Below are positions 1 through 34,754 of a DNA stretch of 64,000 nucleotides, piece after piece. Position numbers and translations under genes: made by a program. How positions within the stretch are numbered: the first letter of the stretch is position 1; every line of letters begins with the position of its first letter. The stretch is taken from positions 1 through 64,000 of the IMG/VR virus record IMGVR_UViG_3300017933_000003. One strand, 5' to 3'. The notes under the pieces were generated by a model. That model saw only the letters and a program-made list of their open reading frames with translations, had not been told where the DNA came from and made no database searches. Origin of the DNA: a virus (lineage: Duplodnaviria > Caudoviricetes).

Positions 1-129
1 ATCCTGCAATAGACAACATAACTATTCCATTAGTGCAATGGAACTATGCTTCCAAAGATCTTTTAATAAAGAAGTTGAAAATTTTAATACTCTTTTCGTA
101 AAGTAATTTACTACTATAATTAATCTAAA

Positions 130-540
130 ATGATAGACCCTAATTTGAAATGGCAAGTGCTACGAGCATATAAAGATGCAGCCACCCCACTTACAGCCTC
201 GCAAGTCAGTTCCATAATTGGATATCCTATTGCATCCGAAGTGCAAAAAGTAATTCACGCTCTTGCTCAAGAAGGTAGATTAAAACTCCACTATCCTGGT
301 GGTATTAAATATATGAAAAATGTAAGAGGCGGTTCAGCTAAATATGAGTATGTATCTCCCCAACCCATAACACCCGCGCAAGAATTACTTGACAAAGCTA
401 AAGTCTATCCTCCTCGTCCCATTGAAGATGTGCTTAAAGAAATCATGTCCGACGACGAGAAAGAGAATGCCTTAAAAACATCCCAAGATGGAACTCTTGA
501 AAACGGTTTAAGATTGATTGCCAGCATTCCTAATAAGTAA
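130..540 (+). CDS. hypothetical protein (possible winged-helix N-terminus)
   Basis: 136-aa ORF; no clear family motif. Confidence 0.55.
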   Translation: MIDPNLKWQVLRAYKDAATPLTASQVSSIIGYPIASEVQKVIHALAQEGRLKLHYPGGIKYMKNVRGGSAKYEYVSPQPITPAQELLDKAKVYPPRPIEDVLKEIMSDDEKENALKTSQDGTLENGLRLIASIPNK

Positions 541-541
541 A

Positions 542-1099
542 ATGATCCAACCTCCCCAAACTCTTTTTCATAAAGATACCTACTGTGGATGGTGCGGCAC
601 GCGCTATGCTGAACAGCAGTTGTATCCTCGCCGCTGTTTCCACTGCGGAAACGATACTTACCGTAATCCTATTCCGGTCGTGGTGCCCATCGTTCCTGTT
701 CCTTATCCTGGGTTCAGCATCTATAATCGCAAGCACCCCACCCAATGGTTGATCCAACGACGCAATATTGATCCTCAAAAGGGCGGATGGTCTCTTCCAT
801 CAGGTTATGTCAATTATGCAGAGACTTGGCAGCAAGCGGTTGTCCGGGAACTGCAAGAAGAAATGGGCTTGCTGACCAAACCAGAAGACTTTGAAGTCTT
901 GGAAGTAGTTAATGCGACCAATAATAATATGCTGATCTTCTGCTTTCACAAGGACGGAGTCAAGGAAGAAGATATTCACTTCACCTCAAACGAAGAGGTA
1001 AGTGAGATTCAACTCATTACTAACCCATATAAGATTGAGTTATGCTTTCCTTCCCACAACGAGCAGCTGCGCAAGTTTTATGATTCGCTGGATTGGTGA
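542..1099 (+). CDS. Nudix hydrolase with N-terminal zinc ribbon
   Basis: CGWC...CFHC ribbon; Nudix box GYVNYAETWQQAVVRELQEEMGL; start placed at ATG 542. Confidence 0.85.
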   Translation: MIQPPQTLFHKDTYCGWCGTRYAEQQLYPRRCFHCGNDTYRNPIPVVVPIVPVPYPGFSIYNRKHPTQWLIQRRNIDPQKGGWSLPSGYVNYAETWQQAVVRELQEEMGLLTKPEDFEVLEVVNATNNNMLIFCFHKDGVKEEDIHFTSNEEVSEIQLITNPYKIELCFPSHNEQLRKFYDSLDW

Positions 1100-1200
1100 G
1101 CTTATTCCTGTTATAGAAATTACCCCGCCCCTTCTGACCAAGTCTCCTGTGCCCGCCAGGCAATAACTTCTACAATTCAATTATTAGAATTACACTACCC

Positions 1201-1228
1201 TTGACACATCAAGTGTAAAAATTATATT
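1201..1228 (+). promoter_or_regulatory. sigma70-like promoter
   Basis: TTGACA-16 nt-TATATT upstream of the ORF at 1238; the same pattern recurs at several other sites. Confidence 0.6.
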
Positions 1229-1237
1229 GGAGCAGTT

Positions 1238-1510
1238 ATGACTTTCAAAGAAAATATGGTTCGAGAATTGAACGAAAAAAGATTACAGTCATTAGAACAG
1301 CTGATTAGCGATGCTAATGCTCGTGGTCATCGCTATCTCAAAATCGAGATGGAAGAGGGCGCGGATGTAGTGCATAAATGGCTCTTTAGCTATAGACTAC
1401 TTCCTACTGGACAAGCAGTGTGGGATAAATTGGTCAGCCTGGGATTTCAACCCGAATTTACTTGGGGTGGTGATTGGGCGGGTCCTCCTGGCATTCATAT
1501 TGGGTGGTGA
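1238..1510 (+). CDS. hypothetical protein
   Basis: 90-aa ORF with GGAG RBS. Confidence 0.6.
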   Translation: MTFKENMVRELNEKRLQSLEQLISDANARGHRYLKIEMEEGADVVHKWLFSYRLLPTGQAVWDKLVSLGFQPEFTWGGDWAGPPGIHIGW

Positions 1511-1513
1511 GAT

Positions 1514-2599
1514 ATGTCCTGGCAAGATAAGCTAAAAGAAGCTAACATTAATATCCATTATGTTGCCACAGGAGGTGGAGCTAATTTTCAAGGTGAGCTT
1601 TGGAGCGAACCGGGTAGTTCTGCCTATTTTTCTGGTGCTTCCTTCCCTTATTCTCCCGAAGAACAAGCAGAGTTTCTGGGATTTATGCCGGAACACTTCT
1701 GTTCTGAAGGGGCAGCAGTGGATTTAGCCTCCGCGGCTTATATGAAAGCCTATCAGTTCGGTGGTAAAAACCCAGTGGGATTAGCTCTCACCGCTTCGGT
1801 GGCTTCCGAAAAAGAACATCGAGGCGATCATCGTATTTATAGCGCTATCATGACCAATGATAGAATGATAACGGCTCATCATACTCTAACCAAAGGGATA
1901 GGTGCCCGGCGGCGAAGCCAAGATAATATCGAGTGTGATACTTTGGCTTTCTATACTCTAATAGATGGCTTGAATGGTCCCAAAGGTCGTGAATACAAGG
2001 ATGCCACTTCCCTGGCTACCGAGAGGTTTTTCAAGAGACCTTTCTTTACTGCCAACGGCAAGAGGTTGCAAGAATACGATATTGGATATCATACCGCTTT
2101 GATGCCGGGCGCTTTTAACCCTCCGCATGATGGACATTTTGGCACCGCCGATTATATGTGGCGCGACTATCGTTATGATGTGGTGTTTGAGATTACTGCT
2201 AAACCGCCCCACAAGGAAGCTCTAACCGTGCAGCAATGTTTGCAGCGTGCCAAACTGTTGCAGGGTCATGATCGACTCTTTACGGTAGCCGATCCTTATT
2301 ATTTGGATAAGGCACGCGCCCATCCCGGCGTGCCTTTGGTGTTGGGCGCCGATGCCATGCTACGTTTGTTGGATCCCAAGTGGGGAAAGTCAGCCACTCC
2401 GACTCTGCAAGAATTTAATCGTCTGGGAACTGAACTCTTTATCGTGGGCAGGGAAATAGATGGCAAGTTTATCGAGGTGGGTGATATTACCAATAGCTTG
2501 GTCTTCCCAAACGAGCGAAGCATGTTCGAGCGTATTGCCCATCCCGTGCGAGGGGAGTGGCATGTTAGTTCTACCGAGATTAGGAATAAGACGATATAA
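1514..2599 (+). CDS. CinA/PncC-like domain fused to an HxGH nucleotidyltransferase (NadD-like)
   Basis: N-terminal VATGGG...PGSSAYF...ALTAS resembles the CinA C-terminal fold; C-terminal PGAFNPPHDGH and VSSTEIR motifs. Confidence 0.7.
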   Translation: MSWQDKLKEANINIHYVATGGGANFQGELWSEPGSSAYFSGASFPYSPEEQAEFLGFMPEHFCSEGAAVDLASAAYMKAYQFGGKNPVGLALTASVASEKEHRGDHRIYSAIMTNDRMITAHHTLTKGIGARRRSQDNIECDTLAFYTLIDGLNGPKGREYKDATSLATERFFKRPFFTANGKRLQEYDIGYHTALMPGAFNPPHDGHFGTADYMWRDYRYDVVFEITAKPPHKEALTVQQCLQRAKLLQGHDRLFTVADPYYLDKARAHPGVPLVLGADAMLRLLDPKWGKSATPTLQEFNRLGTELFIVGREIDGKFIEVGDITNSLVFPNERSMFERIAHPVRGEWHVSSTEIRNKTI

Positions 2600-2610
2600 T
2601 ATTTAATTAT

Positions 2611-2727
2611 GTGAGGGTGGTGGAAGGGCGTACACGAGCAGAACCCATAGTGTGTTTATGCGTTCTGCTTATGTTAGATAATCACACTATCTAAACATTG
2701 CTGGTTCGATTCCAGCCCCTCACACCA
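2611..2727 (+). tRNA. atypical 117-nt tRNA-like RNA (Leu-type body, anticodon undetermined)
   Basis: GTGAGGG/CCCTCAC acceptor + ACCA; Leu-like D arm; GCTGG-TTCGATT-CCAGC T arm; extended anticodon arm and 30-nt variable arm. Confidence 0.75.
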
Positions 2728-3498
2728 ATTATCGTATATTTTCTTTTTACGATTCAAATAAATTGTAGCATTGTGATAAATAAAATCACAGATATTTTTT
2801 ACATCTGTCTTTTTGCTTATGCGAAATGCTGTAGTTCCCTTATGATTAAGATTTATTATTTTTGGTTTGAAGCTGGTTAAACAATTTATTTCTAATATTT
2901 TTTTATATGTTGCAATGAATGCAGATGAACCGATTATATCAAATGTAATTCCACCGTTTTTATTAGTAAATAATGAACCATCGCCGTCAAAATATCCTCG
3001 CATAAAATGATTAACCAAAGGATGCTGTATAAGCCAATATGGAAAAGTGTAAATTAAACTTTTACGAGGGACAATATTGAAGCGAGACAATTCATCACAT
3101 ATTTTATTACTTGTGATGACGATTCCATATGTATGATATTTGCCGTTCGCATTTCTGTTAATATTTCCAGTAAAATTAAGTAAATTTTTCATTTTTTCTA
3201 AATGTAAAATGTCCTTTTCGGATAGAAAAAGTCTCACTTCTAATGATGATCGAAGATCATTAATACATCCATCAGCGGCAATAAATCCAGCAATATAAAA
3301 AGAGTTTTCAGTTTCCGTAGAAAAGAAGCCTTCATCAACTTTATGGAACTTTCTTTTATTATACTTAATATTAAGTGAATGTATCTTACTATGAATAGTT
3401 GCCCCTGAAACATTATATTTTAATGCAATTTTTTGCATGCTCTGTAATTCGTCATAGTCTCTTTGTAAGTCAGCCGGAGATATAGTAAAAGTTTTCAT
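2674..3498 (-). CDS. LAGLIDADG homing endonuclease with N-terminal HTH
   Basis: YIAGFIAADGCI and FMRGYFDGDGS motifs. Confidence 0.85.
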   Translation of the reverse strand: MKTFTISPADLQRDYDELQSMQKIALKYNVSGATIHSKIHSLNIKYNKRKFHKVDEGFFSTETENSFYIAGFIAADGCINDLRSSLEVRLFLSEKDILHLEKMKNLLNFTGNINRNANGKYHTYGIVITSNKICDELSRFNIVPRKSLIYTFPYWLIQHPLVNHFMRGYFDGDGSLFTNKNGGITFDIIGSSAFIATYKKILEINCLTSFKPKIINLNHKGTTAFRISKKTDVKNICDFIYHNATIYLNRKKKIYDNWCEGLESNQQCLDSVII

Positions 3499-3522
3499 AC
3501 TATGAATATATCAAGAGTTTAT

Positions 3523-3906
3523 ATGTTTTGTGTATCTAATTTAGTGCATCCACAATACGGTAAAGTAGTTTTCATCCAACGTGCTGAAGAGGGCAATATC
3601 GAAACCCCTTTCTTTGCCATGCAGGCAGCTCTCAAAAATAAACGTTTATGGAAAGCAGAAGGAGCTAAAAACGTTAGGTTCCTGGTGATAGACCAGATTA
3701 TGACGCTTTCTCAAATCAATCGGTGGATACATGAAGAGTATCAAGGTCTTCCAAAATGTGCTAACTGCGCCAAAATACTTCATGGAGACGTGCATACGCA
3801 TCAGCTTGGTGGCGATAGTTTATTCTGCTCACCAGATTGCTCGGGTCAAGACTATCATACGCAGATGGAAAAGTTAAAGGATGAAGAGGAAATAGATTAC
3901 TTATGA
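3523..3906 (+). CDS. hypothetical protein with C-terminal zinc finger
   Basis: CANC...FCSPDC; start placed at ATG 3523 (track start 3502). Confidence 0.6.
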   Translation: MFCVSNLVHPQYGKVVFIQRAEEGNIETPFFAMQAALKNKRLWKAEGAKNVRFLVIDQIMTLSQINRWIHEEYQGLPKCANCAKILHGDVHTHQLGGDSLFCSPDCSGQDYHTQMEKLKDEEEIDYL

Positions 3907-4157
3907 AAGTATTTGATATTTTAAAGCTCAAAGATGGTATTAAGGTTGTATGCGGAGAAAGCTTGTGGGACGATAATATCACTCATAAAGTAGATGACAT
4001 TTTGGTATGTGGTGAGAAACGATGGCAAGTAGTGTCTGTAGATCATCTCCATCAAGGATGTTTTGGTGTTCCAACTACGCGATGGCATGCTTTGCAATTA
4101 CAGCCAATTGGTCATAGCGATCTTCCAAACATAGATGATATCTTGGTGAAAATATGA
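3903..4157 (+). CDS. hypothetical protein
   Basis: 84-aa ORF, ATGA overlap with the upstream gene. Confidence 0.6.
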   Translation: MKVFDILKLKDGIKVVCGESLWDDNITHKVDDILVCGEKRWQVVSVDHLHQGCFGVPTTRWHALQLQPIGHSDLPNIDDILVKI

Positions 4158-4459
4158 TTACTTCTGAAGATCCCAGTCTCGGAATGGGAGCCACCATCCA
4201 TATTGGATCGGATCGAGTGGCTGCCACCATAATTCAAATTACCCACAACTATAAAAGGATAGTGCTACAAGAAGATATGGCTACTCGAACTGACCAAAAT
4301 GGTATGTCGGAATCGCAAACATATACATATCAACCTGATTTTAATGGAAAGTTATGGTATGCTTCCAAACGTAAAGATGGTCGATGGCGTGTTTCGGGCG
4401 GTAATTACTTACTTGTTTCTTTGGGAGTGAGAAACTCTTACTACGATTACTCTTTCTAA
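4154..4459 (+). CDS. hypothetical phage protein
   Basis: 101-aa ORF, ATGA overlap. Confidence 0.6.
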   Translation: MITSEDPSLGMGATIHIGSDRVAATIIQITHNYKRIVLQEDMATRTDQNGMSESQTYTYQPDFNGKLWYASKRKDGRWRVSGGNYLLVSLGVRNSYYDYSF

Positions 4460-4511
4460 TTTGCCGGATATATGATACTGTAGCATTAATTGTGCCACGT
4501 AGGAGAAAAAG

Positions 4512-4739
4512 ATGTCCAAGAAAGTTGCCAAGAAGCCAGCCAAGAAGGCTGTTTCCACCAAGAAACAAACCAAGAAGCCTGTCAAGAAGACGGCTGCTGC
4601 CAAGAAACCAACCACTCGTAAGCCGCGCAAGACGGCGGTTGCTGCGGCTCCCGTTCAGGATGTAGCGGTGAAACCGGTAGTGGATCCTTCTGGTGTCGTG
4701 ATGATTACACCAGTAGTGCCTGACGTAGTTAATTCCTGA
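4512..4739 (+). CDS. Lys/Ala-rich histone H1-like basic protein
   Basis: repeated AKK/KKP units; AGGAG RBS. Confidence 0.65.
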   Translation: MSKKVAKKPAKKAVSTKKQTKKPVKKTAAAKKPTTRKPRKTAVAAAPVQDVAVKPVVDPSGVVMITPVVPDVVNS

Positions 4740-4744
4740 GTTTT

Positions 4745-5398
4745 ATGTTTGTGTTATCTTTGGTGCGACAGCTGTGTGCTGATAAGCTGCCTGTCCAGCC
4801 TGATGTGCGCCAAGGGTCGGGCGCGGATGGAGAAGTGTTCTCTATTAAGGATGATCCACATAAGGTTCTCAAATTGAGCGTATTGTATGGACGACCGGGT
4901 CAAAGTGCTGACCGACCCTTTCGGGTAATACAAAAAGTATTGGAGACTATTCAAGCGGAACGCCCCAGCGCTTATGTGCAGCTGTATCAACATGGATACC
5001 TAGGCACTTATTCACGTCAGATGCATGTACGCCCCCGTGGTCGTGTTAAGCAGGATTTTATTCTTTACTATTATCTGATGGATAAATTATACCCTATTAC
5101 CGAAGACGAAGGGAAAGTATTTCATTCCATTTTGTCGCATGAGGATAGGAATATTAAGAAAGATTTTTCTCCCGACAAAATTCGAGAAATGTTGCAAGGG
5201 ATGAGTCGCGGACTTGATTTTGATACAGAAAAGGTTATCTTATTCTGTCGGAATATTAAGCGGGCGGAACAAGAGATAGGAGTGTTGCACGGAGATATTT
5301 CTCCGCGTAATATTATGAGAAATATGGAAGGACAATTCAAATTAATTGACGTGGATAGATGTGAAATTGTCGCCCCTCGTCGCAGCTCTTCAAATTAA
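4745..5398 (+). CDS. protein kinase-like enzyme
   Basis: GSGADGEV Gly loop, VLK lysine, HGDISPRN catalytic loop, LIDVD in place of DFG. Confidence 0.75.
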   Translation: MFVLSLVRQLCADKLPVQPDVRQGSGADGEVFSIKDDPHKVLKLSVLYGRPGQSADRPFRVIQKVLETIQAERPSAYVQLYQHGYLGTYSRQMHVRPRGRVKQDFILYYYLMDKLYPITEDEGKVFHSILSHEDRNIKKDFSPDKIREMLQGMSRGLDFDTEKVILFCRNIKRAEQEIGVLHGDISPRNIMRNMEGQFKLIDVDRCEIVAPRRSSSN

Positions 5399-5481
5399 AA
5401 ACTTTCGAAGGGGCTTGCGCCCCTAATTTACTTGATTATATTATTCTGGATTCCTTTTACTTCCCATAGGAGATTTATATT

Positions 5482-5778
5482 ATGCAAAGCACCAAGACTC
5501 GCAACGAGATCAAACAACTAGCTCAGACGATGGAGACCCTCGCACATGAGGTGCAAGTTCGTTTGGATGCCGGTTCCGATATTCTTACACTGGCCAACGA
5601 ACTGGTTCGCAACAGCAGCACTTTCGTTTTTACTTTGGGCGAGATGTATGCCTTAGAGCAAGCGGGTTCCACCAGGACCCGTACGGCTCGTAAGGTCAGC
5701 AGTGGCAGCACCACTTCCACCTCTCGCAACTACCACAACCTCCGCGACAACCTGGGACGCTTTACGCGTAAGGTTTGA
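5482..5778 (+). CDS. hypothetical protein ending in an RDxxGRF motif
   Basis: AGGAG RBS downstream of a TTGCGC-16-TATATT promoter-like site. Confidence 0.65.
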   Translation: MQSTKTRNEIKQLAQTMETLAHEVQVRLDAGSDILTLANELVRNSSTFVFTLGEMYALEQAGSTRTRTARKVSSGSTTSTSRNYHNLRDNLGRFTRKV

Positions 5779-6017
5779 TGCCGTTATCAGATCACTTTCA
5801 CCGTGGTTTGCAAGCCATCGCAGCAGCTTGCTTGCTGATTCTTGGCAACGTCTTCATTTGCTTTACTGTCGCGTTTGTAGTGGAGATCGAGCTAATTGCC
5901 AGCGGTTGTAATCGATATGTAGCTTTACTTTTAGCCATCCTGACAGGCATTGTTTGCAACACATATGTCGTGTTCAATCATAAAATCAGGAACTTTATCA
6001 AAAACCAGAGGAGCTAG
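5775..6017 (+). CDS. small membrane protein
   Basis: two hydrophobic segments. Confidence 0.55.
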   Translation: MMPLSDHFHRGLQAIAAACLLILGNVFICFTVAFVVEIELIASGCNRYVALLLAILTGIVCNTYVVFNHKIRNFIKNQRS

Positions 6018-6022
6018 AATCC

Positions 6023-6412
6023 ATGACTGATCCAGTAGAATCTTTCTTAGATAATCAAAGACCGTTACTTAAATTAGTAGATGAAATGCTTGATGAGTGG
6101 AAGAGTGAAACCTGCTATCAGGTGCCTCAACTACTTTTGAATATGGGAGCGCGTTTGAACTGGAACTCGGAACAGCTCCGCAAATTCGACCCCATCGTTC
6201 GAGCTTATCTTAAAGACCATCCAGTGTGGTATGTCACTCGTGGCGCCCACGGTGGTATTATGAAGAGGGCAGAACATAACAAGAAAGAAGCTGATAAAGC
6301 TGCCAAGGAAGCTGCTAAGCAAGCGCTGAAAGCCCAGTTGGAAGCTAAAGCTACTGCCGTTATTTCTGTCTCTTCTGTCCCAGCTAACGGACAAGACAAT
6401 ACCAATACGTAA
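6023..6412 (+). CDS. hypothetical protein, YVTRGxxGG family (paralog of 36459)
   Basis: WYVTRGAHGGI followed by a Lys/Ala-rich tail. Confidence 0.65.
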   Translation: MTDPVESFLDNQRPLLKLVDEMLDEWKSETCYQVPQLLLNMGARLNWNSEQLRKFDPIVRAYLKDHPVWYVTRGAHGGIMKRAEHNKKEADKAAKEAAKQALKAQLEAKATAVISVSSVPANGQDNTNT

Positions 6413-6459
6413 CATCATCAAGCTGGTAAGTTGAATCGTGCCAGCTTGACTATTTAGGA

Positions 6460-7032
6460 GTGATCATGAAAAGGCTATTGTTTTTGTCTGTGGTGCTGAT
6501 GACAGGCGTGATGGCATGTTCTTCTTGCGCCAAGAAAAGTCAAACGAGTGCCCAACCAGATGTTGCTACTTGTACTGATGCCAGCTGTCCTATCAAGCTT
6601 CCGGAAGCTGGCACAGAGACAGTTAATGATGTCATCCAAGAGGATAATTGGCAATTCACTTTGCCCGGCTCTGGATGGGTTTCGGTCAAGCCACCCGATG
6701 ATACTATCAAGGTGATCTTTGCCAACCAGGAGACCAACACCATCGTCTTCTTGGCTAAAGACCCTACCACACAAACTTCCAGCGAGTACATCATCAATGC
6801 TCTACGCTCTTTCAAGGCAGCTGGCACTCTGATACAATCAGCCCAGCAAGTGTCCATTACTGACACCAACTTCATTATGGTGACGGCGCAAGGAGAGACT
6901 CGAAAAATCTGGACTTGGATTTCGGTGCAGAAAGGTTTTGGATACATTTTTACCTGTGCCGCAGATAACTCGAATGCCGATACCGGTGCCCAGCGTTGCC
7001 AGGATATCGCCAACACCCTACAAATTCGATGA
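6460..7032 (+). CDS. putative lipoprotein (PsbP/DcrB-like fold possible)
   Basis: hydrophobic signal peptide ending VMAC; WQFTLPGSGW segment. Confidence 0.55.
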   Translation: MIMKRLLFLSVVLMTGVMACSSCAKKSQTSAQPDVATCTDASCPIKLPEAGTETVNDVIQEDNWQFTLPGSGWVSVKPPDDTIKVIFANQETNTIVFLAKDPTTQTSSEYIINALRSFKAAGTLIQSAQQVSITDTNFIMVTAQGETRKIWTWISVQKGFGYIFTCAADNSNADTGAQRCQDIANTLQIR

Positions 7033-7035
7033 AGC

Positions 7036-7920
7036 ATGGATAAAGTTCTCTTCATCGATGGTCATAATTTCATTTGGCGTGCTAATACTACTTTCGGTGG
7101 TCCAGTTAAGCATGAACTAATGAATGATAGGTGTTCGTGCAAGTCTCCGTGGAACATGGAGAATAACTTCTGTTATGGTGAGACCTACAATGTCATCTTT
7201 AACTTCTTTCGTAATCTACGCCCTATTATCGAACAATTCTCGCCAGAAAAATGTTTTTTCATTTTAGAGGGGCGACCACAGTTTAGATATGATCTATATG
7301 CCGATTACAAAGCCAATCGTTTGATCAAGACGGCTTCACGTCAAGATGATCAAGATAGATTTATGACTAATCTTCCAGTTATTGTGGATATGCTCAAACA
7401 TCTTCCCATCACTCAGGCACGCGCGCAGGCGTATGAGTGTGATGATACAATTGCCTCGATGTGTGAAAACCTGAAGACGGAAGACCTAACTATCATCAGT
7501 TCGGATACTGATTATATTCAACTTATTCAAAAGGGTTATCCTTCCATTCAGATTTACAACCCCATCAAGAAGACTTATATGCAAGCGCCCACCTATCCAT
7601 ACGTGGTGTGGAAAAGTATAGCAGGTGATAAATCAGACAATATTCCCGCGCTCCTCAAACCCAAGAAAGCGGTCGAGACCGCCAGTAGTCCAATACTATT
7701 CCAAAAGTTTTTGGAAACAGAAGAGAATAGGGCTAATTTTAGCATCAACCGTCAGTTGATAGAGTTTAGAGCGGTTCCGGCAGAAGAAATTGAGATACAA
7801 GAAGGGGAAAGGAACTTTCAATTCTTGTATGATGTATTCTCTCAAATGAAGTTCGAAAGTATTATTCGTCCCGATGCTTGGAAAAGATACGTCAAAACTT
7901 TTGATTGCATCAAGTATTAG
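7036..7920 (+). CDS. 5'-3' exonuclease / flap endonuclease (T4 RNase H, PolI N-terminal family)
   Basis: LFIDGHN, YKANR, ECDD, ISSDTDYIQL and GDKSDNIP motifs. Confidence 0.9.
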   Translation: MDKVLFIDGHNFIWRANTTFGGPVKHELMNDRCSCKSPWNMENNFCYGETYNVIFNFFRNLRPIIEQFSPEKCFFILEGRPQFRYDLYADYKANRLIKTASRQDDQDRFMTNLPVIVDMLKHLPITQARAQAYECDDTIASMCENLKTEDLTIISSDTDYIQLIQKGYPSIQIYNPIKKTYMQAPTYPYVVWKSIAGDKSDNIPALLKPKKAVETASSPILFQKFLETEENRANFSINRQLIEFRAVPAEEIEIQEGERNFQFLYDVFSQMKFESIIRPDAWKRYVKTFDCIKY

Positions 7921-7928
7921 GTGAGGAC

Positions 7929-8330
7929 ATGCGTAAGTTTATTGTTTATACTCGACCCCTTCCTGCTGGCTGCTGTCAGATTAGCACTGATGCTCCCGCT
8001 ATCGTAGAAGTTGAGGGAGAGATGATTACTCAATTGGAGGATCCTTCGGTGGGCTGGCTGCCTGAAAAGGCATTTAGATTTCGTATTACCAAACCCGATT
8101 TTCTCTACGAGCCGCAAGAAATTAAAAAGGCAGACGGTTCTAGAGAGAAAGTGATGGTTCCGCCAGTCTATCATAGTCATGCAGTTTATTACAACATCTA
8201 TCAAGCACAGGTAGCCGCAGAACGTGTGGTGCGGGAGGGTTTTGCCTTTGCCAAGCGCAAGACTGGAGCTGAATTTACTGAGGAAGACGTCAGAGCGAAA
8301 TTCTCCGAAATTCAAGAAGTTCTGCTGTGA
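7929..8330 (+). CDS. hypothetical protein
   Basis: GAGGA RBS before ATG 7929. Confidence 0.6.
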   Translation: MRKFIVYTRPLPAGCCQISTDAPAIVEVEGEMITQLEDPSVGWLPEKAFRFRITKPDFLYEPQEIKKADGSREKVMVPPVYHSHAVYYNIYQAQVAAERVVREGFAFAKRKTGAEFTEEDVRAKFSEIQEVLL

Positions 8331-8346
8331 TATATGAGATGATATA

Positions 8347-8940
8347 ATGAAAATATTTATCATCGGTTTGCCCAAAAGCGGACGTTCCACAGTAGCCAAA
8401 GCCATTACTGAACAGCTGCAAGCTTGCTATATTGATGCTATGTCGTGGGTTAAAACTACCTTTCGCCAAAAGAAGGGAGGAGAACATCCTCATCGATATG
8501 ATGATGATTATGAACATTTCCTTTCTATTAGGAGAATGGTTAATCCATATTTTGTCATTAATCATGTGCAAGATTTGCTGAAGTCTAATGAGTCGGAAAA
8601 GATTTTTGTTATTGATGGAATTGCCAGTCCCAAAGATTTTTCCGATTTATTTGATTACCGACAAGACGTAGTAGTCTTTTTGAATCGGACTGATGGCACT
8701 GCCGAGTTTAAGGATCATGAAAACATCGGCGTCTCTGTTATTAGAGATTATTGTTTTTGGCTATCCGCTGCCAACTTATTGCCCAGGCCTAAATGGTTAG
8801 AATACAACTTTAAGATTCCTGGTGAAGAATCAGATTTTGTTAAAGAACTAGGCTCTAAAAACAGTGTATTCATTGTGAGATCTATTACTAAGGTGATAGA
8901 TCATACCATGGTTCAGTTGAAAGATATATTAGGAGAATAA
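8347..8940 (+). CDS. P-loop nucleotide kinase-like protein
   Basis: IIGLPKSGRST Walker A variant; FVIDG Walker B. Confidence 0.6.
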   Translation: MKIFIIGLPKSGRSTVAKAITEQLQACYIDAMSWVKTTFRQKKGGEHPHRYDDDYEHFLSIRRMVNPYFVINHVQDLLKSNESEKIFVIDGIASPKDFSDLFDYRQDVVVFLNRTDGTAEFKDHENIGVSVIRDYCFWLSAANLLPRPKWLEYNFKIPGEESDFVKELGSKNSVFIVRSITKVIDHTMVQLKDILGE

Positions 8941-10118
8941 TGGACATTATATACACTGGAGAGGAAATGCCTCAATCCTTTACCAAGTCTATCTTTTTAG
9001 CTGGCCCAACTAGCAGGAACAAAGAAGTTCCATCGTGGCGCCCCGATGCTCTCAAATTGTTAGAAGACATGGGTTTTGATGGAACTGTTTTCGTGCCGGA
9101 AGATGCTAATGGTGAAGTGCATTTAGATTACGATCACCAAATAGAATGGGAAGAAAAACACCTCAACGCTGCCGATTGCATCGTCTTTTGGATTCCTCGC
9201 GATCTCTCACCAGATAGTGAAGGTTTTCCTAAGCGAGCTGCCTTCACTACCAATATTGAATGGGGAACTTGGGCAGATTCAGGTAAAGTAGTTCTCGGCG
9301 CCCCAGAAGATGCTGAGAAGATGGCGTATATCAAACATTATGCCGAGGAATATAGAGTTCCTTTTGCTGAAACTTTGACCGAGACGTTGAAAAACGCTAT
9401 GGATAAATTGGGTGAGGGTGAAGAACGCAGTGGAGGAGAGCGCTATGTTCCCCTGTTTATTTGGAAGTTAGACTCTTTTCAAAACTGGTATCAGGGGCAA
9501 AAAGGGGCAGGTAATGTATTAGAAACGGCTCGTCTTCTCTATACTTTCCGTCCTCGATTCAAGGATTTTGTATTTCTTTGGACGCTTAAAATTAAGATAT
9601 ATGTTTCATCTGAAGATCGTTTTAAAGAAAATGAGATAGTTATTTCTCGTCCTGATATTTCTTGTGTTATGCTTTATCATAAAGCTAGCTATTACAGAGA
9701 CACAGAGGTAGTTCTCATCAAGGAATTTCGCTCTCCCGCCTCTACATTCGATGGGTTCGTTCATGAGCTGCCCAGCGGTTCTGTCAGAAATTCAAAGGCA
9801 GACGAGGCGGCTGCGGTAGAAGAGCTGCTAGAGGAGACGGGATTTTATCTGGATCCCTCTCGTCTGAGAGTTGTCAATGTCAGGCAATTAGCCGGAACTT
9901 TCTCGGCGCATAAGGCACATGCGTATTGCGCGGATTTAACTGATGAGGAGTTGGAGTGGTTCAAATCTCAGAAGGATATTCCACATGGTGTAGAGAAAGA
10001 TTCTGAAAGAACCTTTGTGGAAGTCAAGACCATTCGAGAACTATTGAATACTAACTTAGTGGACTGGTCGACGCTTGGTATAATATTTTCTACTCTTTCC
10101 TCCCAAGGTTATCTGTAA
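8940..10118 (+). CDS. nucleoside 2-deoxyribosyltransferase-like domain fused to a Nudix domain
   Basis: IFLAGP...WR...EWE...ADCIVFW...TNIEWG N-terminal signature; ELPSG...EELLEETGF degenerate Nudix box. Confidence 0.75.
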   Translation: MDIIYTGEEMPQSFTKSIFLAGPTSRNKEVPSWRPDALKLLEDMGFDGTVFVPEDANGEVHLDYDHQIEWEEKHLNAADCIVFWIPRDLSPDSEGFPKRAAFTTNIEWGTWADSGKVVLGAPEDAEKMAYIKHYAEEYRVPFAETLTETLKNAMDKLGEGEERSGGERYVPLFIWKLDSFQNWYQGQKGAGNVLETARLLYTFRPRFKDFVFLWTLKIKIYVSSEDRFKENEIVISRPDISCVMLYHKASYYRDTEVVLIKEFRSPASTFDGFVHELPSGSVRNSKADEAAAVEELLEETGFYLDPSRLRVVNVRQLAGTFSAHKAHAYCADLTDEELEWFKSQKDIPHGVEKDSERTFVEVKTIRELLNTNLVDWSTLGIIFSTLSSQGYL

Positions 10119-10900: not shown

Positions 10901-10970
10901 TTAAATTGAACACCTATCAATAACGATATATACTCTCACGCAAGAGGGGAAAATATATTTTGGCACCAAT

Positions 10971-11071
10971 TGCCTCGACAATGGTTGAGCGTAATTCCTT
11001 ATCATTCGTATAAATTACACGCTCTTGACGTTGTAGCTACCGTGATTATAATGCGGTGCTTGACGAAGGCA
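10971..11071 (+). promoter_or_regulatory. structured 5' leader of the Ro60 gene
   Basis: TGCCT/AGGCA closing helix, GAGCGT-AATT/AATT-AC-ACGCTC and ACCGT/GCGGT hairpins; lies between a CGATATAT motif (10924) and the ATG at 11117. Confidence 0.45.
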
Positions 11072-11116
11072 TCGTCATTTTGTTGGAACTTTCTTCCAAA
11101 TAAAAGGAGTATTCAC

Positions 11117-12694
11117 ATGTCAAACAAGAATCTATTTTCGAACAAGAAGGCAACTGTGTCTCGTAAGGTGACTCGTGCAACTGACACGACTAATGAAGCA
11201 GGTGGAACTGCCTATAAGCTATCCGACAAGGCTGCTTTGGCGCAATACGCTCTGACTGGCACTTTCAACGGCACCTACTATGCTTCGGATGCAGAGCAGT
11301 TGAAGAAGACGCTCGAATTGGCTAACAAGGTCGATGTTAAGTTCGTTGCCAAGCTTGCCGTGTACGCACGTGAACAAGGCTTAATGAAAGATATGCCCGC
11401 CGTGTTAGCTGCAGTAGTGGCTAGCCGAGATACCGAATTGTTAGCTCAGATTTTTGATCGAGTGATTGATAACCCGAAGATGCTCCGCAACTTCGTGCAG
11501 ATCATTCGTTCAAGTGCGGTGGGTCGCAAGTCCTTTGGCACTCGTATCAAGCGATTGATTCAGAACTATTTGGAAAACTTGACCGACGAACAATTGTTTA
11601 AGGCTGACGTGGGTAACGATCCCAGCTTGCAGGACATTATTAAACTGGTTCACCCCAAGCCTTCTAACAAGAAACGTTCCGCCATGTATGGATATTTGCT
11701 GGACAAAGAATATAATGCTCGCGATTTAGCGCCTTTGGCTAAGGAGTTTGAGCGTTTCAAGAAGGAACTGTCTGGAGAGATTCCTGACGTTCCGTTTCAA
11801 ATGTTAACGGCATTACCGTTGACGGATAAGCACTGGAAGCAGATTGCTGATAATGCCACCTGGAATCAGACACGTATGAATTTGAATACGTTTGCACGTC
11901 ACAATGTATTGGTTGATCGTGATATGACGGTTAAGCTTGCCAAGCGTCTCTCTAACCCAGAGTCAGTGCGTAAGGCGAAGGTGTTTCCTTATCAGTTGTT
12001 TACTTCATATCTCAACATGGATACTACTATTCCTGCCAATTTGACCAATGCGTTGCAAGATGCTGCGGACTCAGCTTTGGATAATATTCCTGAGTTCTCG
12101 GGTAAGGTCTATGTCATGGTAGACACTTCCGGTTCTATGAGTTCTCCAGCCACGGGAAACCGTGGTTCAGTGACCACCAAAACTCGTTGTGTAGATGTAG
12201 CAGGACTCTTTGCTGCCGCTATCTTGCGTAAGAACCCTGATACGGAAATCGTTCCTTTCGATACACGTGTGCACGTGGACTTTCGTTTGAATACTCGTGA
12301 CTCTATTATGACCAACGCTCAAAAGTTGGCTTCTTTCGGTGGCGGTGGTACCGATTGTTCCGCTGCTTTGAAGTATGTCAACAGTCAGCTTAAGAAGGGC
12401 GACCTGGTTATCTATATTAGTGATAACCAAAGTTGGTTAGATTCGGGTTCCTCCTATTATCATGATGCTACGGCAACTATGAATGAGTGGAATAAGTTCA
12501 AAGCTCGCAACCCGAAGGCAAAGTTGGTGTGTATTGATATTCAGCCGTATGCTTCAACCCAGGCACACGATCGTGAAGATATACTAAATATTGGGGGATT
12601 TTCTGATACTTGCTTCGAAGTAATCAATAATTTTATGGAGATGGGATCCAACAAGGATCTTTGGATCAAAACCATCGAGTCCGTCACGCTCTGA
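11117..12694 (+). CDS. Ro60 / TROVE-domain RNA-binding protein with C-terminal vWA domain
   Basis: TNEAGGTAY, GTFNGTYY, MKDMP, LRNFVQIIRS, TRMNLNTF, VFPYQLF and VDTSGSMS (MIDAS) motifs; AAGGAG RBS before ATG 11117. Confidence 0.92.
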   Translation: MSNKNLFSNKKATVSRKVTRATDTTNEAGGTAYKLSDKAALAQYALTGTFNGTYYASDAEQLKKTLELANKVDVKFVAKLAVYAREQGLMKDMPAVLAAVVASRDTELLAQIFDRVIDNPKMLRNFVQIIRSSAVGRKSFGTRIKRLIQNYLENLTDEQLFKADVGNDPSLQDIIKLVHPKPSNKKRSAMYGYLLDKEYNARDLAPLAKEFERFKKELSGEIPDVPFQMLTALPLTDKHWKQIADNATWNQTRMNLNTFARHNVLVDRDMTVKLAKRLSNPESVRKAKVFPYQLFTSYLNMDTTIPANLTNALQDAADSALDNIPEFSGKVYVMVDTSGSMSSPATGNRGSVTTKTRCVDVAGLFAAAILRKNPDTEIVPFDTRVHVDFRLNTRDSIMTNAQKLASFGGGGTDCSAALKYVNSQLKKGDLVIYISDNQSWLDSGSSYYHDATATMNEWNKFKARNPKAKLVCIDIQPYASTQAHDREDILNIGGFSDTCFEVINNFMEMGSNKDLWIKTIESVTL

Positions 12695-16821: not shown

Positions 16822-16904
16822 GGGAAGGTAGCTCAGTGTCAGAGCGCAAGGCGTCCGCAAGGAAAACCTTGAGGTCGGTGGTTTGATTCCATCCCTTCCC
16901 ACCA
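16822..16904 (+). tRNA. tRNA-like gene with a GNRA hairpin inserted in the anticodon loop (Phe-like)
   Basis: GGGAAGG/CCTTCCC+ACCA; GCTC/GAGC D arm; CAAGG/CCTTG stem encloses the 15-nt loop CG-TCC-GCAA-GGA-AAA. Confidence 0.75.
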
Positions 16905-16964
16905 AGCTGAATGCAGATGTGATTACATCGGAAAAATGCAAAATCTCATCAACTCTTGTCAGCT
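16905..16964 (+). ncRNA. Y-like stem-loop RNA, copy 1
   Basis: AGCTGA-ATGC-A-GATGTGAT-TACAT...ATCTCATC-AAC-TCTTG-TCAGCT. Confidence 0.6.
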
Positions 16965-16969
16965 TTTAT

Positions 16970-17064
16970 GCACCGATAGCTCAGTGTTAGAGCAGCTGGT
17001 CAATGTCCGAATAAAAACGGATAAACTTGCAGGTCGTGTGGTTCAACTCCCGCTCGGTGCCCCA
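16970..17064 (+). tRNA. tRNA-like gene with a hairpin inserted in the anticodon loop (identity undetermined)
   Basis: GCACCGA/TCGGTGC+C+CCA; D and T arms present; TGTCCG/CGGATA hairpin inside the anticodon loop. Confidence 0.7.
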
Positions 17065-17104
17065 CTTATGGCTTGATTCATGTAAAAGTGAATTGTGCCA
17101 CCAC

Positions 17105-17162
17105 ACCGAATGCCAGTAGGATTACATACCATAAAAAACAAATCTTACTAACTATTGTCGGT
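17105..17162 (+). ncRNA. Y-like stem-loop RNA, copy 2
   Basis: ACCGA-ATGC-C-AGTAGGAT-TACAT...ATCTTACT-AAC-TATTG-TCGGT. Confidence 0.55.
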
Positions 17163-17164
17163 AT

Positions 17165-17298: not shown

Positions 17299-17420
17299 CG
17301 GCGATTAGTACAGTCTGGTAGTACGCTTGTTTTGGCTTGTTAATCATAAATAGTGATGGAATATTCGCTACTTATGACAAGTACAAGAGGTCAGAGGTTC
17401 GAATCCTCTATCGCCGACCA
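17299..17420 (+). tRNA. tRNA-Pro(UGG) with a 45-nt hairpin insertion 3' of the anticodon
   Basis: CGGCGAT/ATCGCCG+ACCA; CTTGT-TTTGG-[17336-17380]-GT-ACAAG. Confidence 0.8.
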
Positions 17421-18001: not shown

Positions 18002-18121
18002 GTTTCAATAGCTTAAGAGTTAAGTAGGCAAGATGATTATTCGCGCGAAACAAGTCTTGCCGAAGGTAGAGCGCCCTTATTCAATAGGGAGATGGAGGTT
18101 CGAATCCTTCTTGAGACACCA
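18002..18121 (+). tRNA. tRNA with a hairpin inserted in the D loop; best-fit anticodon UCA (possible opal suppressor)
   Basis: GTTTCAA/TTGAGAC+ACCA; GGCAAGA/TCTTGCC hairpin within the D loop; CCCTT-ATTCAAT-AGGGA. Confidence 0.65.
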
Positions 18122-33977: not shown

Positions 33978-34339
33978 GTAGAGTAGCTCGGGTAATCGCT
34001 ACATAATATGTAGAGGAAAGTACGGGCTTTATAGGACAAGATGCTGGTTAACGACCAGATACAGTAATGTAATGGAAAGTGCAACAGAAAATACAACGCC
34101 AACTGATAAGACCTAGTCTTATAAAGGGCAAGTGTGAAAAGGCGAGGTAATAGCTCACCGCATTTACAGTGATGTAAATGGCAAGTGCAAACCCCATCTA
34201 AAGCAAGGCAAACAGTAAACGCTTGAGGGCTGTCCGTCCAATGTTTACGGGTTGCTGCTTGAGTCAATAAGTAATTATTGACCTAGATTAATGATTGCCT
34301 GATTTTATACACAGAACCCGTCTTATAGGGCTGCTCTAC
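33978..34339 (+). ncRNA. rnpB: RNase P RNA (bacterial type A-like)
   Basis: GAGGAAAGTACGGGC and ACAGAACCCGTCTTA P4 strands with a compensatory A-U pair; P1 GTAGAGTAGC/GCTGCTCTAC; AACAGAAA, GGTAA and AAACCC...AGCAAG conserved blocks. Confidence 0.92.
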
Positions 34340-34754
34340 TTTTTCTATAATTAATAATGGCTGTTACTGCAATTTTAGTTTCCTCAACTGTAAGAAAATT
34401 ATTTCTTATTGAATTGCATTGTTTACAACAAGGTAAAACGTTATCAACAGTATATCCTTTAGTATTATCTATTCTGTCTAATCCAGATCCATATTTAGAT
34501 TTTGCAGCAAAGAAGTCTTCACAATAATAACAAGGTTTAGAAATCAATTTTGCATATTCATCAATAGTAATTGCCCACTCTTTATGAATTTTAATGCCTC
34601 TTTGTTTAGATTTTGCAAAACGAGATCCAATTTTTTGTTGTTGTTTAGATGCAGCCTCTTTGACTTGTGGTGTTTGTTGGTAACATTTTTTACATATTGG
34701 ACCAGTATACCACTGATAGCTTTCGTGTGTTCCGCATTTAATGCACGCTTTCAT
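34323..34754 (-). CDS. HNH-type homing endonuclease
   Basis: CYYC...GLDRIDNTKGYTVDNVLPCCKQCN. Confidence 0.82.
   Translation of the reverse strand: MKACIKCGTHESYQWYTGPICKKCYQQTPQVKEAASKQQQKIGSRFAKSKQRGIKIHKEWAITIDEYAKLISKPCYYCEDFFAAKSKYGSGLDRIDNTKGYTVDNVLPCCKQCNSIRNNFLTVEETKIAVTAIINYRKSRAAL

What the first reader, a model, noticed from the sequence alone, without database searches (positions are those of the whole stretch)
2611..2727. Giant tRNA-like RNA whose two extended arms could form a kissing interaction
Seen in sequence: a Leu-type body has an intact acceptor, CCA, D arm and T arm. Its anticodon arm is extended to AGCAGAAC-C-CATAG-TGTGT-TTATG-C-GTTCTGCT, and its variable arm is 30 nt long. 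The tip of the first arm (ATAGTGTG) is the exact reverse complement of the tip of the second (CACACTAT), giving 8 bp. No 7-nt anticodon loop can form. Inference: this is a chargeable but non-decoding tRNA mimic, such as a nuclease decoy, aminoacyl donor or ribosome modulator, or a precursor needing a new kind of splicing.
Basis: partly seen in the sequence, partly recalled or inferred. Interest (0 to 1): 0.72.

Follow-up and report, generated by a model that had tools for sequence, protein, structure and literature searches.

The report
Phage tRNA-Leu mimic with kissing arms
This is a real, conserved gene of a group of very large bacteriophages for a 117-base RNA that keeps the body of a leucine tRNA but replaces the anticodon end with two long hairpins whose tips base-pair with each other, so it looks like a tRNA to enzymes yet cannot read codons.

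Summary
Window 2611-2727 (+) has a 7-bp acceptor stem, A73-CCA, a 3-bp D arm, a T arm and two long hairpins (2637-2669 and 2670-2699). Their tips carry an exact 8-nt reverse complement (2647-2654 / 2683-2690).

It is not a chance feature. I found 28 distinct homologues in huge-phage contigs (about 0.27-0.5 Mb). There is one copy per genome, always just downstream of the same PncC/NMN-adenylyltransferase-like gene.

All helices covary. The loop-loop complementarity is kept in every member with at least 13 different sequence pairs, including swapped polarity (permutation test 0/20000).

The body is a paralogue of the phages' own tRNA-Leu genes, which are the next-best hits of the family model. 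Neither loop conserves an anticodon, and no excision restores a Leu anticodon loop.

No Rfam family reaches its curated threshold, and I found no paper describing it.

Best reading: a non-decoding tRNA-Leu mimic, processed like a tRNA and possibly leucylated by the host enzyme, with its anticodon end locked by a kissing helix.

Open points:
- whether the loops pair within one molecule or between molecules (as in phi29 pRNA);
- what the RNA binds;
- whether it is expressed (no RNA data available).

Interest is high. I class it as a new variant of tRNA mimic.

The parts
2611..2617 (+). acceptor stem, 5' strand
   Evidence: Pairs with 2717-2723. 7/7 pairs are kept in all 28 homologues, and 6 of 7 show compensatory changes.
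2620..2635 (+). D arm (3-bp stem; loop with A14, A15, G18 G19, A21)
   Evidence: 100% paired in homologues and invariant tertiary bases. Nearly the same as the D arm of the phages' canonical tRNA-Leu.
2637..2669 (+). hairpin 1, at the place of the anticodon arm (lower helix, mismatch or internal loop, upper helix, loop)
   Evidence: Fold. The lower helix is 98.6% paired and the upper helix 92.1% paired across 28 sequences. All 10 pairs show changes on both sides.
2647..2654 (+). kissing segment 1 (ATAGTGTG; the loop plus part of the upper helix)
   Evidence: Exact reverse complement of 2683-2690. The equivalent loop in every homologue is complementary to its own hairpin 2 loop.
2670..2699 (+). 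hairpin 2, at the place of the variable arm (30 nt)
   Evidence: Fold. 9 pairs, all with changes on both sides, 87% paired.
2683..2690 (+). kissing segment 2 (CACACTAT)
2700..2716 (+). T arm (5 bp, loop TTCGATT)
   Evidence: 100% paired in homologues. G53, T54, T55, C56, A58 and C61 are invariant.
2717..2727 (+). acceptor 3' strand, discriminator A73, CCA
   Evidence: A73 is invariant. CCA is encoded in 21 of 28 copies; the others end ACAA or ACTA.
1514..2599 (+). upstream PncC / NMN-adenylyltransferase-like gene (synteny anchor; not shown to be functionally linked)
   Evidence: Pfam CinA plus CTP_transf_like. In relatives the RNA lies about 10-800 nt downstream of this gene.
2674..3498 (-). 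LAGLIDADG homing endonuclease gene. It was inserted after the RNA, and its last ~18 codons are antisense to the T arm and acceptor. It is not part of the RNA family.
   Evidence: Pfam LAGLIDADG_3 and LAGLIDADG_1; translation. Absent at this spot in L002 and L003.

Best explanation
The element is the gene of a conserved, single-copy RNA of about 117 nt that derives from tRNA-Leu and does not decode. It belongs to one clade of huge phages.

Shown:
- It keeps the acceptor stem, A73(-CCA), the D arm, the T arm and the universal tertiary bases of an L-shaped class II tRNA.
- The anticodon arm and the variable arm are replaced by two long hairpins of fixed size, about 15-6-15 nt and 10-6-10 nt.
- The loops of these hairpins are complementary over 5-8 bases in every member, and the loop sequences co-vary.

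Inferred:
- It is transcribed inside a gene string like the phage's ordinary tRNAs. It is cut out by RNase P (the phage carries its own RNase P RNA) and by 3' processing.
- It folds into a tRNA-like L that tRNA-binding proteins can recognise. This possibly includes the host leucyl-tRNA synthetase, which in E. coli needs A73 and the D/T-loop core but not the anticodon or variable arm.
- The loop-loop helix locks the anticodon end. The RNA therefore cannot read codons and offers no single-stranded anticodon loop.
- It therefore most likely works as a stable tRNA-Leu mimic: a decoy or sponge for a tRNA-binding host or phage factor, or a tRNA-shaped scaffold that carries the kissing module.

I take the pairing to be within one molecule (about 2:1 over pairing between molecules).
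For: Anatomy.

Homologues:
- 28 distinct copies were found at the syntenic place in IMG/VR, JGI and Logan contigs.
- Family model R1 scores members at 87-125 bits, with one divergent copy at 52 bits. Every other tRNA of the window scores 36 bits or less.
- A 100%-complete 481-kb relative has a single copy.

Nested structure: RNAalifold finds compensatory changes in 26 of 30 pairs.

Full structure including the pseudoknot:
- 93.2% of cells are paired, against 71.7% in shuffles and about 40% when partners are slid.
- 36 of 40 pairs change on both sides.
- No shuffle out of 500 reaches the observed values.

Loop-loop pairing:
- There are 18 string types. The mean Watson-Crick run is 5.8 in the same molecule and 3.3 across types (permutation test 0/20000).
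- Within the near-identical core clade, single positions flip in a compensatory way. Columns 47-87 read UA in 15 sequences and CG in 9. Columns 44-91 read GC in 21 and AU in 2.

tRNA-Leu origin:
- The next-best R1 hits in relatives are tRNA-Leu genes with anticodons CAA, UAG, CAG and GAG.
- They have almost the same D arm.

LeuRS requirements come from PMC9976931, read. A73, the A15-U48 pair, G18G19 and the D/T-loop pairs are needed, while variants without the anticodon and variable arms are still charged. A73, A14, A15, G18G19, the base before the T stem, T54, T55, C56 and A58 are invariant or nearly so in the family.

Other context:
- RNase P RNA lies in the window at 33980-34341, 281 bits.
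- Ordinary tRNAs sit in the same tight ORF-tRNA-ORF slots.
Against: - There is no expression data. No RNA run holds the region.
- Charging is untested. The E. coli LeuRS determinant A20a is G in most members.
- The relatives encode no LeuRS and no Leu/Phe-tRNA transferase, so no dedicated partner is visible.
- The neighbouring small ORFs have no informative family.
- No target of a 'decoy' has been identified.
- My rough geometry argument is inference only. Closing a 13-bp arm and a 10-bp arm of one molecule through a 6-bp helix needs sharp bends at the internal loops, so pairing between molecules is a serious alternative.
Confidence: 0.55

Rival explanations
1. The RNA is the same, but the two loops pair between molecules ('hand in hand', as in phi29 packaging RNA). 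This would give closed dimers or rings, or chains, of tRNA-like units that present several acceptor ends.
For: - Covariation cannot distinguish pairing within a molecule from pairing between molecules.
- Most loop pairs are not palindromic.
- Arm lengths are tightly conserved.
- By my geometric reasoning, coaxial stacking of arm, kissing helix and arm between two cores needs no sharp kink, whereas closure within one molecule does (inference).
- Precedent from my own knowledge: phi29 pRNA loop covariation was first read as a pseudoknot and later shown to be intermolecular.
Against: - Most covariation-supported loop-loop pairings in natural RNAs are intramolecular. An example is the L2-L3 pair of the lysine riboswitch, cited from my own knowledge.
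- Purine-rich internal loops are conserved in both arms and could act as the hinges needed for closure within one molecule.
- Assembly between molecules requires high RNA concentration.
Confidence: 0.3
2. It is a leucine carrier. After charging by host LeuRS it donates leucine to a non-ribosomal acceptor, such as a protein N-terminus, a cell-wall or lipid molecule, or a peptide. The locked anticodon end keeps it off the ribosome.
For: - A73, the CCA end and the LeuRS-relevant core are retained.
- The design is non-decoding.
Against: - No Leu/Phe-tRNA transferase was found in three relatives, one of them complete.
- No aminoacyl-tRNA-using enzyme family was recognised among the neighbouring genes.
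- Charging is untested, and A20a is not conserved.
Confidence: 0.08
3. It acts in cis as a tRNA-shaped punctuation or control element of the operon. It would direct RNase P/Z cleavage between the NMN-adenylyltransferase-like gene and the next gene, or control translation of the next gene, whose start codon abuts the CCA in several relatives.
For: - The element sits tightly between two ORFs. The gap is 9-15 nt upstream and 0-15 nt downstream.
- The phage has its own RNase P RNA.
Against: - Ordinary tRNAs of the window occupy identical slots, so the position is not special.
- A mere cleavage signal would not need two long arms with covarying loop-loop pairing.
- In L004, L011 and L031 the element lies several hundred nt from the upstream gene.
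Confidence: 0.1
4. It is a precursor of a decoding tRNA-Leu that carries short introns in the anticodon and variable regions. The loop-loop pairing would help an unknown splicing machinery.
For: - ARAGORN in intron mode forces a call of 'tRNA-Gln(ctg), 20-nt intron'.
- The same phage has other tRNAs with inserts in the anticodon loop.
Against: - The ARAGORN model has a mismatched stem and a non-Leu anticodon on a Leu body.
- In no member does a single excision give a 7-nt loop with U33 and a Leu anticodon. The anticodons that could result differ between members (sequences).
- There is no bulge-helix-bulge motif.
- The inserts are too small for group I introns, and no intron family matched.
- Both arms are under selection as helices along their whole length.
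Confidence: 0.03
5. It is a decaying tRNA pseudogene or a phage attachment-site remnant, and the complementarity is chance.
For: Standard tRNA finders miss it.
Against: - 28 homologues have compensatory changes in every helix and in the loop-loop pairing.
- The tertiary bases are invariant.
- Length is conserved at 117-123 nt.
Confidence: 0.01

Closest known systems
Canonical class II tRNA-Leu of the same phages
   Same: Acceptor 7 bp, T stem 5 bp, A73, 3-bp D stem. The D loop is almost identical, and G18G19 and the T loop are shared. The element lies in the same kind of slot between ORFs. tRNA-Leu genes are the next-best hits of model R1 at 47-56 bits.
   Different: There is no 5-bp anticodon stem with a 7-nt loop and no Leu anticodon. 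The arm at the anticodon position is about 35 nt and the 'variable' arm about 28 nt, roughly twice normal. The two loops pair with each other.
Bacterial Y RNA YrlA (tRNA-like domain tethered to a Ro60-binding stem)
   Same: It is a non-decoding RNA that mimics the tRNA acceptor, D and T core. This phage clade also encodes Ro60 and Y-like stems.
   Different: In YrlA the RNA ends lie in the Ro-binding stem and the acceptor-like helix is closed (my own knowledge; bioRxiv 10.1101/312249, listed). Here the acceptor is open with A73-CCA, there is no Ro-binding motif, and Rfam YrlA does not match the locus.
tmRNA tRNA-like domain and plant-virus 3' tRNA-like structures
   Same: These are tRNA mimics with a chargeable acceptor end and no functional anticodon arm.
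   Different: tmRNA carries a tag reading frame and pseudoknots and is charged with alanine. ARAGORN finds no tmRNA here. Viral tRNA-like structures are the 3' ends of RNA genomes and are built from pseudoknotted acceptor stems. This element is a free-standing tRNA paralogue of a DNA phage.
phi29 packaging RNA (pRNA)
   Same: It is a phage RNA of about 120 nt. Two of its loops are mutually complementary and co-vary between relatives.
   Different: pRNA is not tRNA-like. It pairs between molecules to form a ring on the prohead of small phi29-like phages (my own knowledge). Here the context is a huge phage, the body is a tRNA, and whether pairing is within or between molecules is unknown.
Intramolecular kissing loops of multi-helix RNAs (lysine riboswitch L2-L3, purine riboswitch L2-L3)
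   Same: Two neighbouring arms of one junction are tied together at their tips by Watson-Crick loop-loop pairs, six in the lysine riboswitch (my own knowledge).
   Different: Those are cis-regulatory ligand sensors in mRNA leaders, and one arm uses a K-turn to reach the other. Here no K-turn consensus is evident and the scaffold is a tRNA.

Membership tests
canonical tRNA (Rfam RF00005 / ARAGORN) | 7-bp acceptor stem, D arm, T arm with T-loop consensus, conserved tertiary bases | tested here: met
canonical tRNA (Rfam RF00005 / ARAGORN) | 5-bp anticodon stem with a 7-nt loop and a conserved anticodon | tested here: not met
   Not called by ARAGORN. Loops are 5-10 nt long and no anticodon is conserved.
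canonical tRNA (Rfam RF00005 / ARAGORN) | score at or above the Rfam gathering threshold (29 bits) | tested here: not met
   No RF00005 hit at the locus. The only clan hit is tRNA-Sec at 24.5 bits.
tRNA-Leu (bacterial class II) | A73, 3-bp D stem, G18G19, A15-U48-type core, long extra arm | tested here: met
   Invariant columns. The D arm matches the phage tRNA-Leu. tRNA-Leu genes are the next-best hits of R1. A20a is not conserved.
tRNA-Leu (bacterial class II) | Leu anticodon (NAG or YAA) in a 7-nt loop | tested here: not met
   sequences
tRNA-Leu (bacterial class II) | leucylation by LeuRS | not testable with these tools
   Literature requirements were read. An aminoacylation assay is needed.
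tRNA-Sec (RF01852) | gathering score of 47 bits; 8/5 or 9/4 acceptor/T helices; 6-bp D stem; UCA anticodon | tested here: not met
   24.5 bits. The helices are 7/5, the D stem is 3 bp, and there is no UCA.
tmRNA | tRNA-like domain plus a tag-peptide reading frame and pseudoknots | tested here: not met
   ARAGORN finds no tmRNA. The element is 117 nt and has no reading frame.
Y RNA / YrlA | Ro60-binding stem motif; ends of the RNA in that stem | tested here: not met
   No YrlA match at 2500-2850 even at E up to 10. By contrast, 16904-16968 gives a YrlA-like hit.
intron-containing pre-tRNA (group I or bulge-helix-bulge type) | a group I core or a 3-4-3 bulge-helix-bulge motif; excision restores a normal anticodon loop | tested here: not met
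   No intron family matched. The internal loops are symmetric and purine-rich, and no excision gives U33 plus a Leu anticodon. The ARAGORN intron call is inconsistent.
   Native gels, AUC or trans-complementation of loop mutants are needed.

The most novel reading that the evidence does not exclude
The two complementary loops pair between molecules. These tRNA-Leu mimics would then self-assemble into closed dimers or small rings, a natural RNA nanostructure. Such an assembly would present several tRNA elbows and (leucylatable) acceptor ends at once, acting as a multivalent trap or platform for a tRNA-binding host defence or translation factor.
Probability: 0.25. Interest if true: 0.92.

Novelty: new variant of a known kind. 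Interest (0 to 1): 0.78.

Why it matters
tRNA mimics are known, for example tmRNA, YrlA and viral tRNA-like ends. A conserved tRNA paralogue whose anticodon arm and variable arm are both enlarged and tied together by a covarying loop-loop helix has not, as far as I could find, been described.

- It shows that huge phages evolve dedicated non-decoding tRNAs in addition to their large sets of ordinary tRNAs.
- It points to an unknown tRNA-directed interaction, which could be a host defence, a synthetase, a processing enzyme or the Ro60/Y RNA machinery.
- It gives structural biologists a compact natural kissing-loop design on a tRNA scaffold.
- The covariation data make the structure directly testable with a 117-nt transcript.

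Tried and rejected
Searches that gave nothing useful:
- blastn of window 1-8000 against INPHARED phages: no match.
- Single-protein pattern scans of IMG/VR and JGI metagenomes with the upstream protein: no confirmed relatives. The alignment-based scans then worked.
- Exact T-arm/acceptor pattern in IMG/VR: none.
- D-arm pattern in IMG/VR: only three contigs already known.
- D-arm pattern in GTDB genomes: one hit, inside a GC-rich coding region of a Flavobacteriales MAG. It is not a family member, since R1 finds nothing there.
- The distant relative LR745208 (39% protein identity) has no element after the gene. G004 and G005 lack it genome-wide.

Expression and population data:
- No RNA holder is listed among public runs. 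All 13 holders are wetland DNA metagenomes.
- Laying contigs of four runs showed no variants, no joints and no allele lacking the homing endonuclease.

Context and partners:
- Pfam on ten neighbouring small ORFs: nothing informative.
- LeuRS domain and Leu/Phe-tRNA transferase: absent from three relatives.

Earlier notes and literature:
- Earlier-notes lookup by sequence: nothing.
- Literature searches found no description of this RNA. A catalogue of about 10,000 candidate viral structured RNAs (PMC10690425) and a review of non-canonical tRNAs (PMC7609411) do not describe it in the passages I searched. I could not check the catalogue's full motif list.

Readings considered and rejected: intron-containing pre-tRNA, tRNA-Sec, tmRNA, YrlA, pseudogene (see membership tests).

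Method note: the MAFFT and Infernal alignments put the loops of divergent members out of register. The pseudoknot count (81% paired) is therefore an underestimate. The register-free run test was used alongside it.

Full report
**What is in the window**

Positions 2611-2727 on the + strand read as a tRNA-like gene.
- A 7-bp acceptor stem (2611-2617 with 2717-2723), followed by A73 and CCA.
- The usual two bases, T and G, at positions 8 and 9.
- A D arm with a 3-bp stem (2620-2635).
- Two long hairpins (2637-2669 and 2670-2699).
- A standard T arm (2700-2716).

The first hairpin has 8 bp, a C/C mismatch, 5 bp and a 5-nt loop. The second has 5 bp, a bulged A, 5 bp and a 7-nt loop. ATAGTGTG (2647-2654) is the exact reverse complement of CACACTAT (2683-2690).

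The strand folds into this shape with z = -4.2 against shuffles. ARAGORN in normal mode skips it while calling 18 other tRNAs. Rfam gives no hit at gathering thresholds and only a sub-threshold tRNA-Sec match of 24.5 bits against a cut-off of 47.

The only overstatement is that no 7-nt loop can form. The second hairpin of this copy does end in a 7-nt loop, but that is not conserved.

**Where the window comes from**

The window is the first 64 kb of a 79.6-kb virus contig, estimated at 18% complete. Features of the contig:
- More than 20 tRNA genes, all on the + strand.
- A bacterial-type RNase P RNA (33980-34341, 281 bits).
- A Ro60 homologue (10970-12694).
- Y-RNA-like stems.

The upstream gene (1514-2599) is a PncC / NMN-adenylyltransferase-like fusion. 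It has more than 400 homologues at 55-68% identity on contigs of up to about 490 kb. The window therefore belongs to a clade of huge phages. Thirteen wetland DNA metagenomes hold the region.

**Homologues**

The intergenic space after the upstream gene in the closest relatives already contained 117-nt look-alikes. Alignment-based scans of IMG/VR and JGI metagenomes, a simple acceptor/T-arm scanner and a covariance model (R1) raised the set to 30 loci and 28 distinct sequences.
- Members score 87-125 bits, and one divergent copy scores 52.
- All other tRNAs of the window score 36 bits or less.
- A 100%-complete 481-kb relative has exactly one copy. Two more distant huge phages, at 39% identity in the anchor protein, have none.
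- Lengths are 117-123 nt. The arm layout is nearly constant, about 15-6-15 nt for arm 1 and 10-6-10 nt for arm 2.
- Seven copies end in ACAA or ACTA instead of ACCA, as expected for tRNA genes whose CCA is added after transcription.

**Structure and covariation**

RNAalifold recovers the acceptor, D, arm 1, arm 2 and T helices, with compensatory changes in 26 of 30 pairs. I then counted the full structure on the model-based alignment, including the upper helix of arm 2 and the loop-loop helix written as a pseudoknot.
- 93.2% of cells are paired. Column shuffles give 71.7%, and sliding the partners by 1-3 columns gives about 40%.
- 36 of 40 pairs change on both sides.
- No shuffle out of 500 reaches the observed values.

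The loop-loop helix is 81% paired in that alignment, even though the loops of divergent members are out of register there. A register-free test asks for the longest Watson-Crick run between the loop of arm 1 and the loop of arm 2.
- The mean run is 5.8 within a sequence, 3.3 between sequences of different type and 3.3 after shuffling.
- None of 20000 permutations reaches the observed mean.
- The pairs differ widely: GTGTAT/ATACAC, GTGCA/TGCAC, ATGCAT/ATGCAT, GTATGAT/ATCATAC, AGTGATG/CATCACT, TACAAT/ATTGTA, TGCTAT/ATAGCA and CCCTC/GAGGG.
- In L003 the polarity is swapped, with CACAA in arm 1 and TTGTG in arm 2.
- Within the core clade the rest of the RNA is almost identical. There, single positions of the kissing helix flip together, for example UA in 15 sequences against CG in 9 at one position.

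**Origin**

In relatives, the next-best hits of the family model are 82-87-nt genes. ARAGORN calls them tRNA-Leu with anticodons CAA, UAG, CAG and GAG. Their D arms are almost identical to that of the element. The element is therefore a tRNA-Leu paralogue.

U8, A14, A15, G18 G19, A21, the base before the T stem, G53, T54, T55, C56, A58, C61 and A73 are invariant or nearly so. The L-shaped core is thus under selection. Neither loop conserves an anticodon.

Taking the lower 5 bp of arm 1 as an anticodon stem, no single excision yields a 7-nt loop with U33 and a Leu anticodon. What could result differs from member to member (sequences). ARAGORN's intron-mode call of 'tRNA-Gln(ctg) with a 20-nt intron' has a mismatched stem and does not fit a Leu body. 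I therefore reject the splicing reading.

**Likely mechanism**

Shown: the RNA has a tRNA-Leu-like core and a masked anticodon end.

Inferred, processing: it is probably processed like a tRNA. It lies 9-15 nt after the stop codon of the upstream gene and 0-15 nt before the next start codon. The ordinary tRNAs of the window sit in the same kind of slot, and the phage has its own RNase P RNA.

Inferred, charging by host LeuRS is possible.
- According to the review read (PMC9976931), E. coli LeuRS needs A73, the A15-U48 pair, G18G19, A20a and the D/T-loop pairs.
- It does not need the anticodon or the variable arm, and truncated tRNA-Leu without both arms is still charged.
- All of these elements except A20a are conserved here.
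- The relatives encode no LeuRS and no Leu/Phe-tRNA transferase. Any charging would therefore be by the host, and no dedicated acceptor enzyme is visible.

Best reading: a stable tRNA-Leu mimic that engages a tRNA-binding factor without decoding and without exposing an anticodon loop. This means a decoy or sponge, or a natural 'tRNA scaffold' for the kissing module. The identity of the partner is unknown.

Ro60 is present in the three searched relatives that have the element and absent from the two that lack it. With five records that also split by clade, this is only a hint.

**Pairing within or between molecules**

Covariation cannot decide this.
- By rough geometry (my inference), a 13-bp arm and a 10-bp arm leaving one core must bend sharply to let their loops form a 6-bp helix. 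The conserved purine-rich internal loops (GA/GA, AA/GA; AA/A) could be the hinges.
- Two or more molecules could instead join arm 1 to arm 2 coaxially and close into dimers or rings without sharp bends, as phi29 pRNA does.

I put the pairing within one molecule at about two to one, on the prior that most such pairings are intramolecular. Simple in vitro experiments would settle the question.

**Neighbouring mobile gene**

A LAGLIDADG homing endonuclease gene lies on the minus strand (2674-3498). It fills the space between the CCA and the next gene, and its last 18 codons or so are antisense to the T arm and acceptor. L002 and L003 lack it at this site, so it is a later insertion and not part of the RNA family.

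**Novelty**

No Rfam 15 family reaches its curated threshold. Five full-text searches and three papers read found no description. Earlier notes of this scan hold no look-alike. I class it as a new variant of a known kind (tRNA mimic). It is a well-supported new RNA family with an unusual architecture and an open function.

Noticed in passing
window 2674-3498 (-): A LAGLIDADG homing endonuclease gene is inserted exactly between the CCA end of the tRNA-like RNA and the start of the next gene (3502). Its C-terminal ~18 codons are antisense to the RNA's T arm and acceptor. L002 and L003 lack it at this site, and L002 has a related gene 1.6 kb further on.
   Followed up: partly
window 16822-16904, 16970-17064, 17299-17420: Three tRNA genes have good acceptor, D and T arms but oversize anticodon loops (15 nt, about 26 nt and 52 nt). 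Rfam tRNA scores are 54, 38 and 56 bits. ARAGORN intron mode gives doubtful anticodons.
   Followed up: partly
window 16904-16968 and about 17100-17163; Ro60 at 10970-12694: Y-RNA-like stems (YrlA model 29 bits, below its cut-off) start directly at tRNA CCA ends, and the phage encodes a Ro60 (TROVE plus vWA) protein. Ro60 is present in the three relatives' records that carry the kissing tRNA-like RNA and absent from the two that lack it (n = 5, confounded by clade).
   Followed up: partly
window 18002-18121 (+): A second 120-nt tRNA-like element has a 7-bp acceptor, a T arm, ACCA and two long inserts. It is not called by ARAGORN and gets 21.5 bits from Rfam tRNA over its 3' part (18054-18118). 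It scores only 27.9 bits with model R1, so it is not a member of this family.
   Followed up: partly
window 33980-34341 (+): Full-length bacterial class A RNase P RNA (281 bits) encoded by the phage.
   Followed up: no
L032:4426-4543: In the most divergent family member the D loop has AA where the others have G18G19, and the T loop reads TGTAAAT instead of TTCRANY. This is a possible compensatory change of the G19-C56 elbow pair to A-U.
   Followed up: no
L003, L007, L011, L030, L038, L032 (3' flank of the element): The start codon of the next gene follows the CCA end immediately (ACCA|ATG). Cleavage at the tRNA 3' end would therefore leave a leaderless mRNA. Other relatives have an AGG-type ribosome-binding site 8-9 nt before the ATG.
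   Followed up: no
window 518-1099, 1514-2599, 8940-10118: A cluster of NAD-related genes: a NUDIX gene, the PncC / NMN-adenylyltransferase-like fusion, and a nucleoside 2-deoxyribosyltransferase-like plus NUDIX fusion.
   Followed up: no
L060, L061, L062 (relatives G001-G003): Relatives carry tandem clusters of four to five canonical tRNA-Leu genes covering anticodons CAA, UAG, CAG and GAG.
   Followed up: partly
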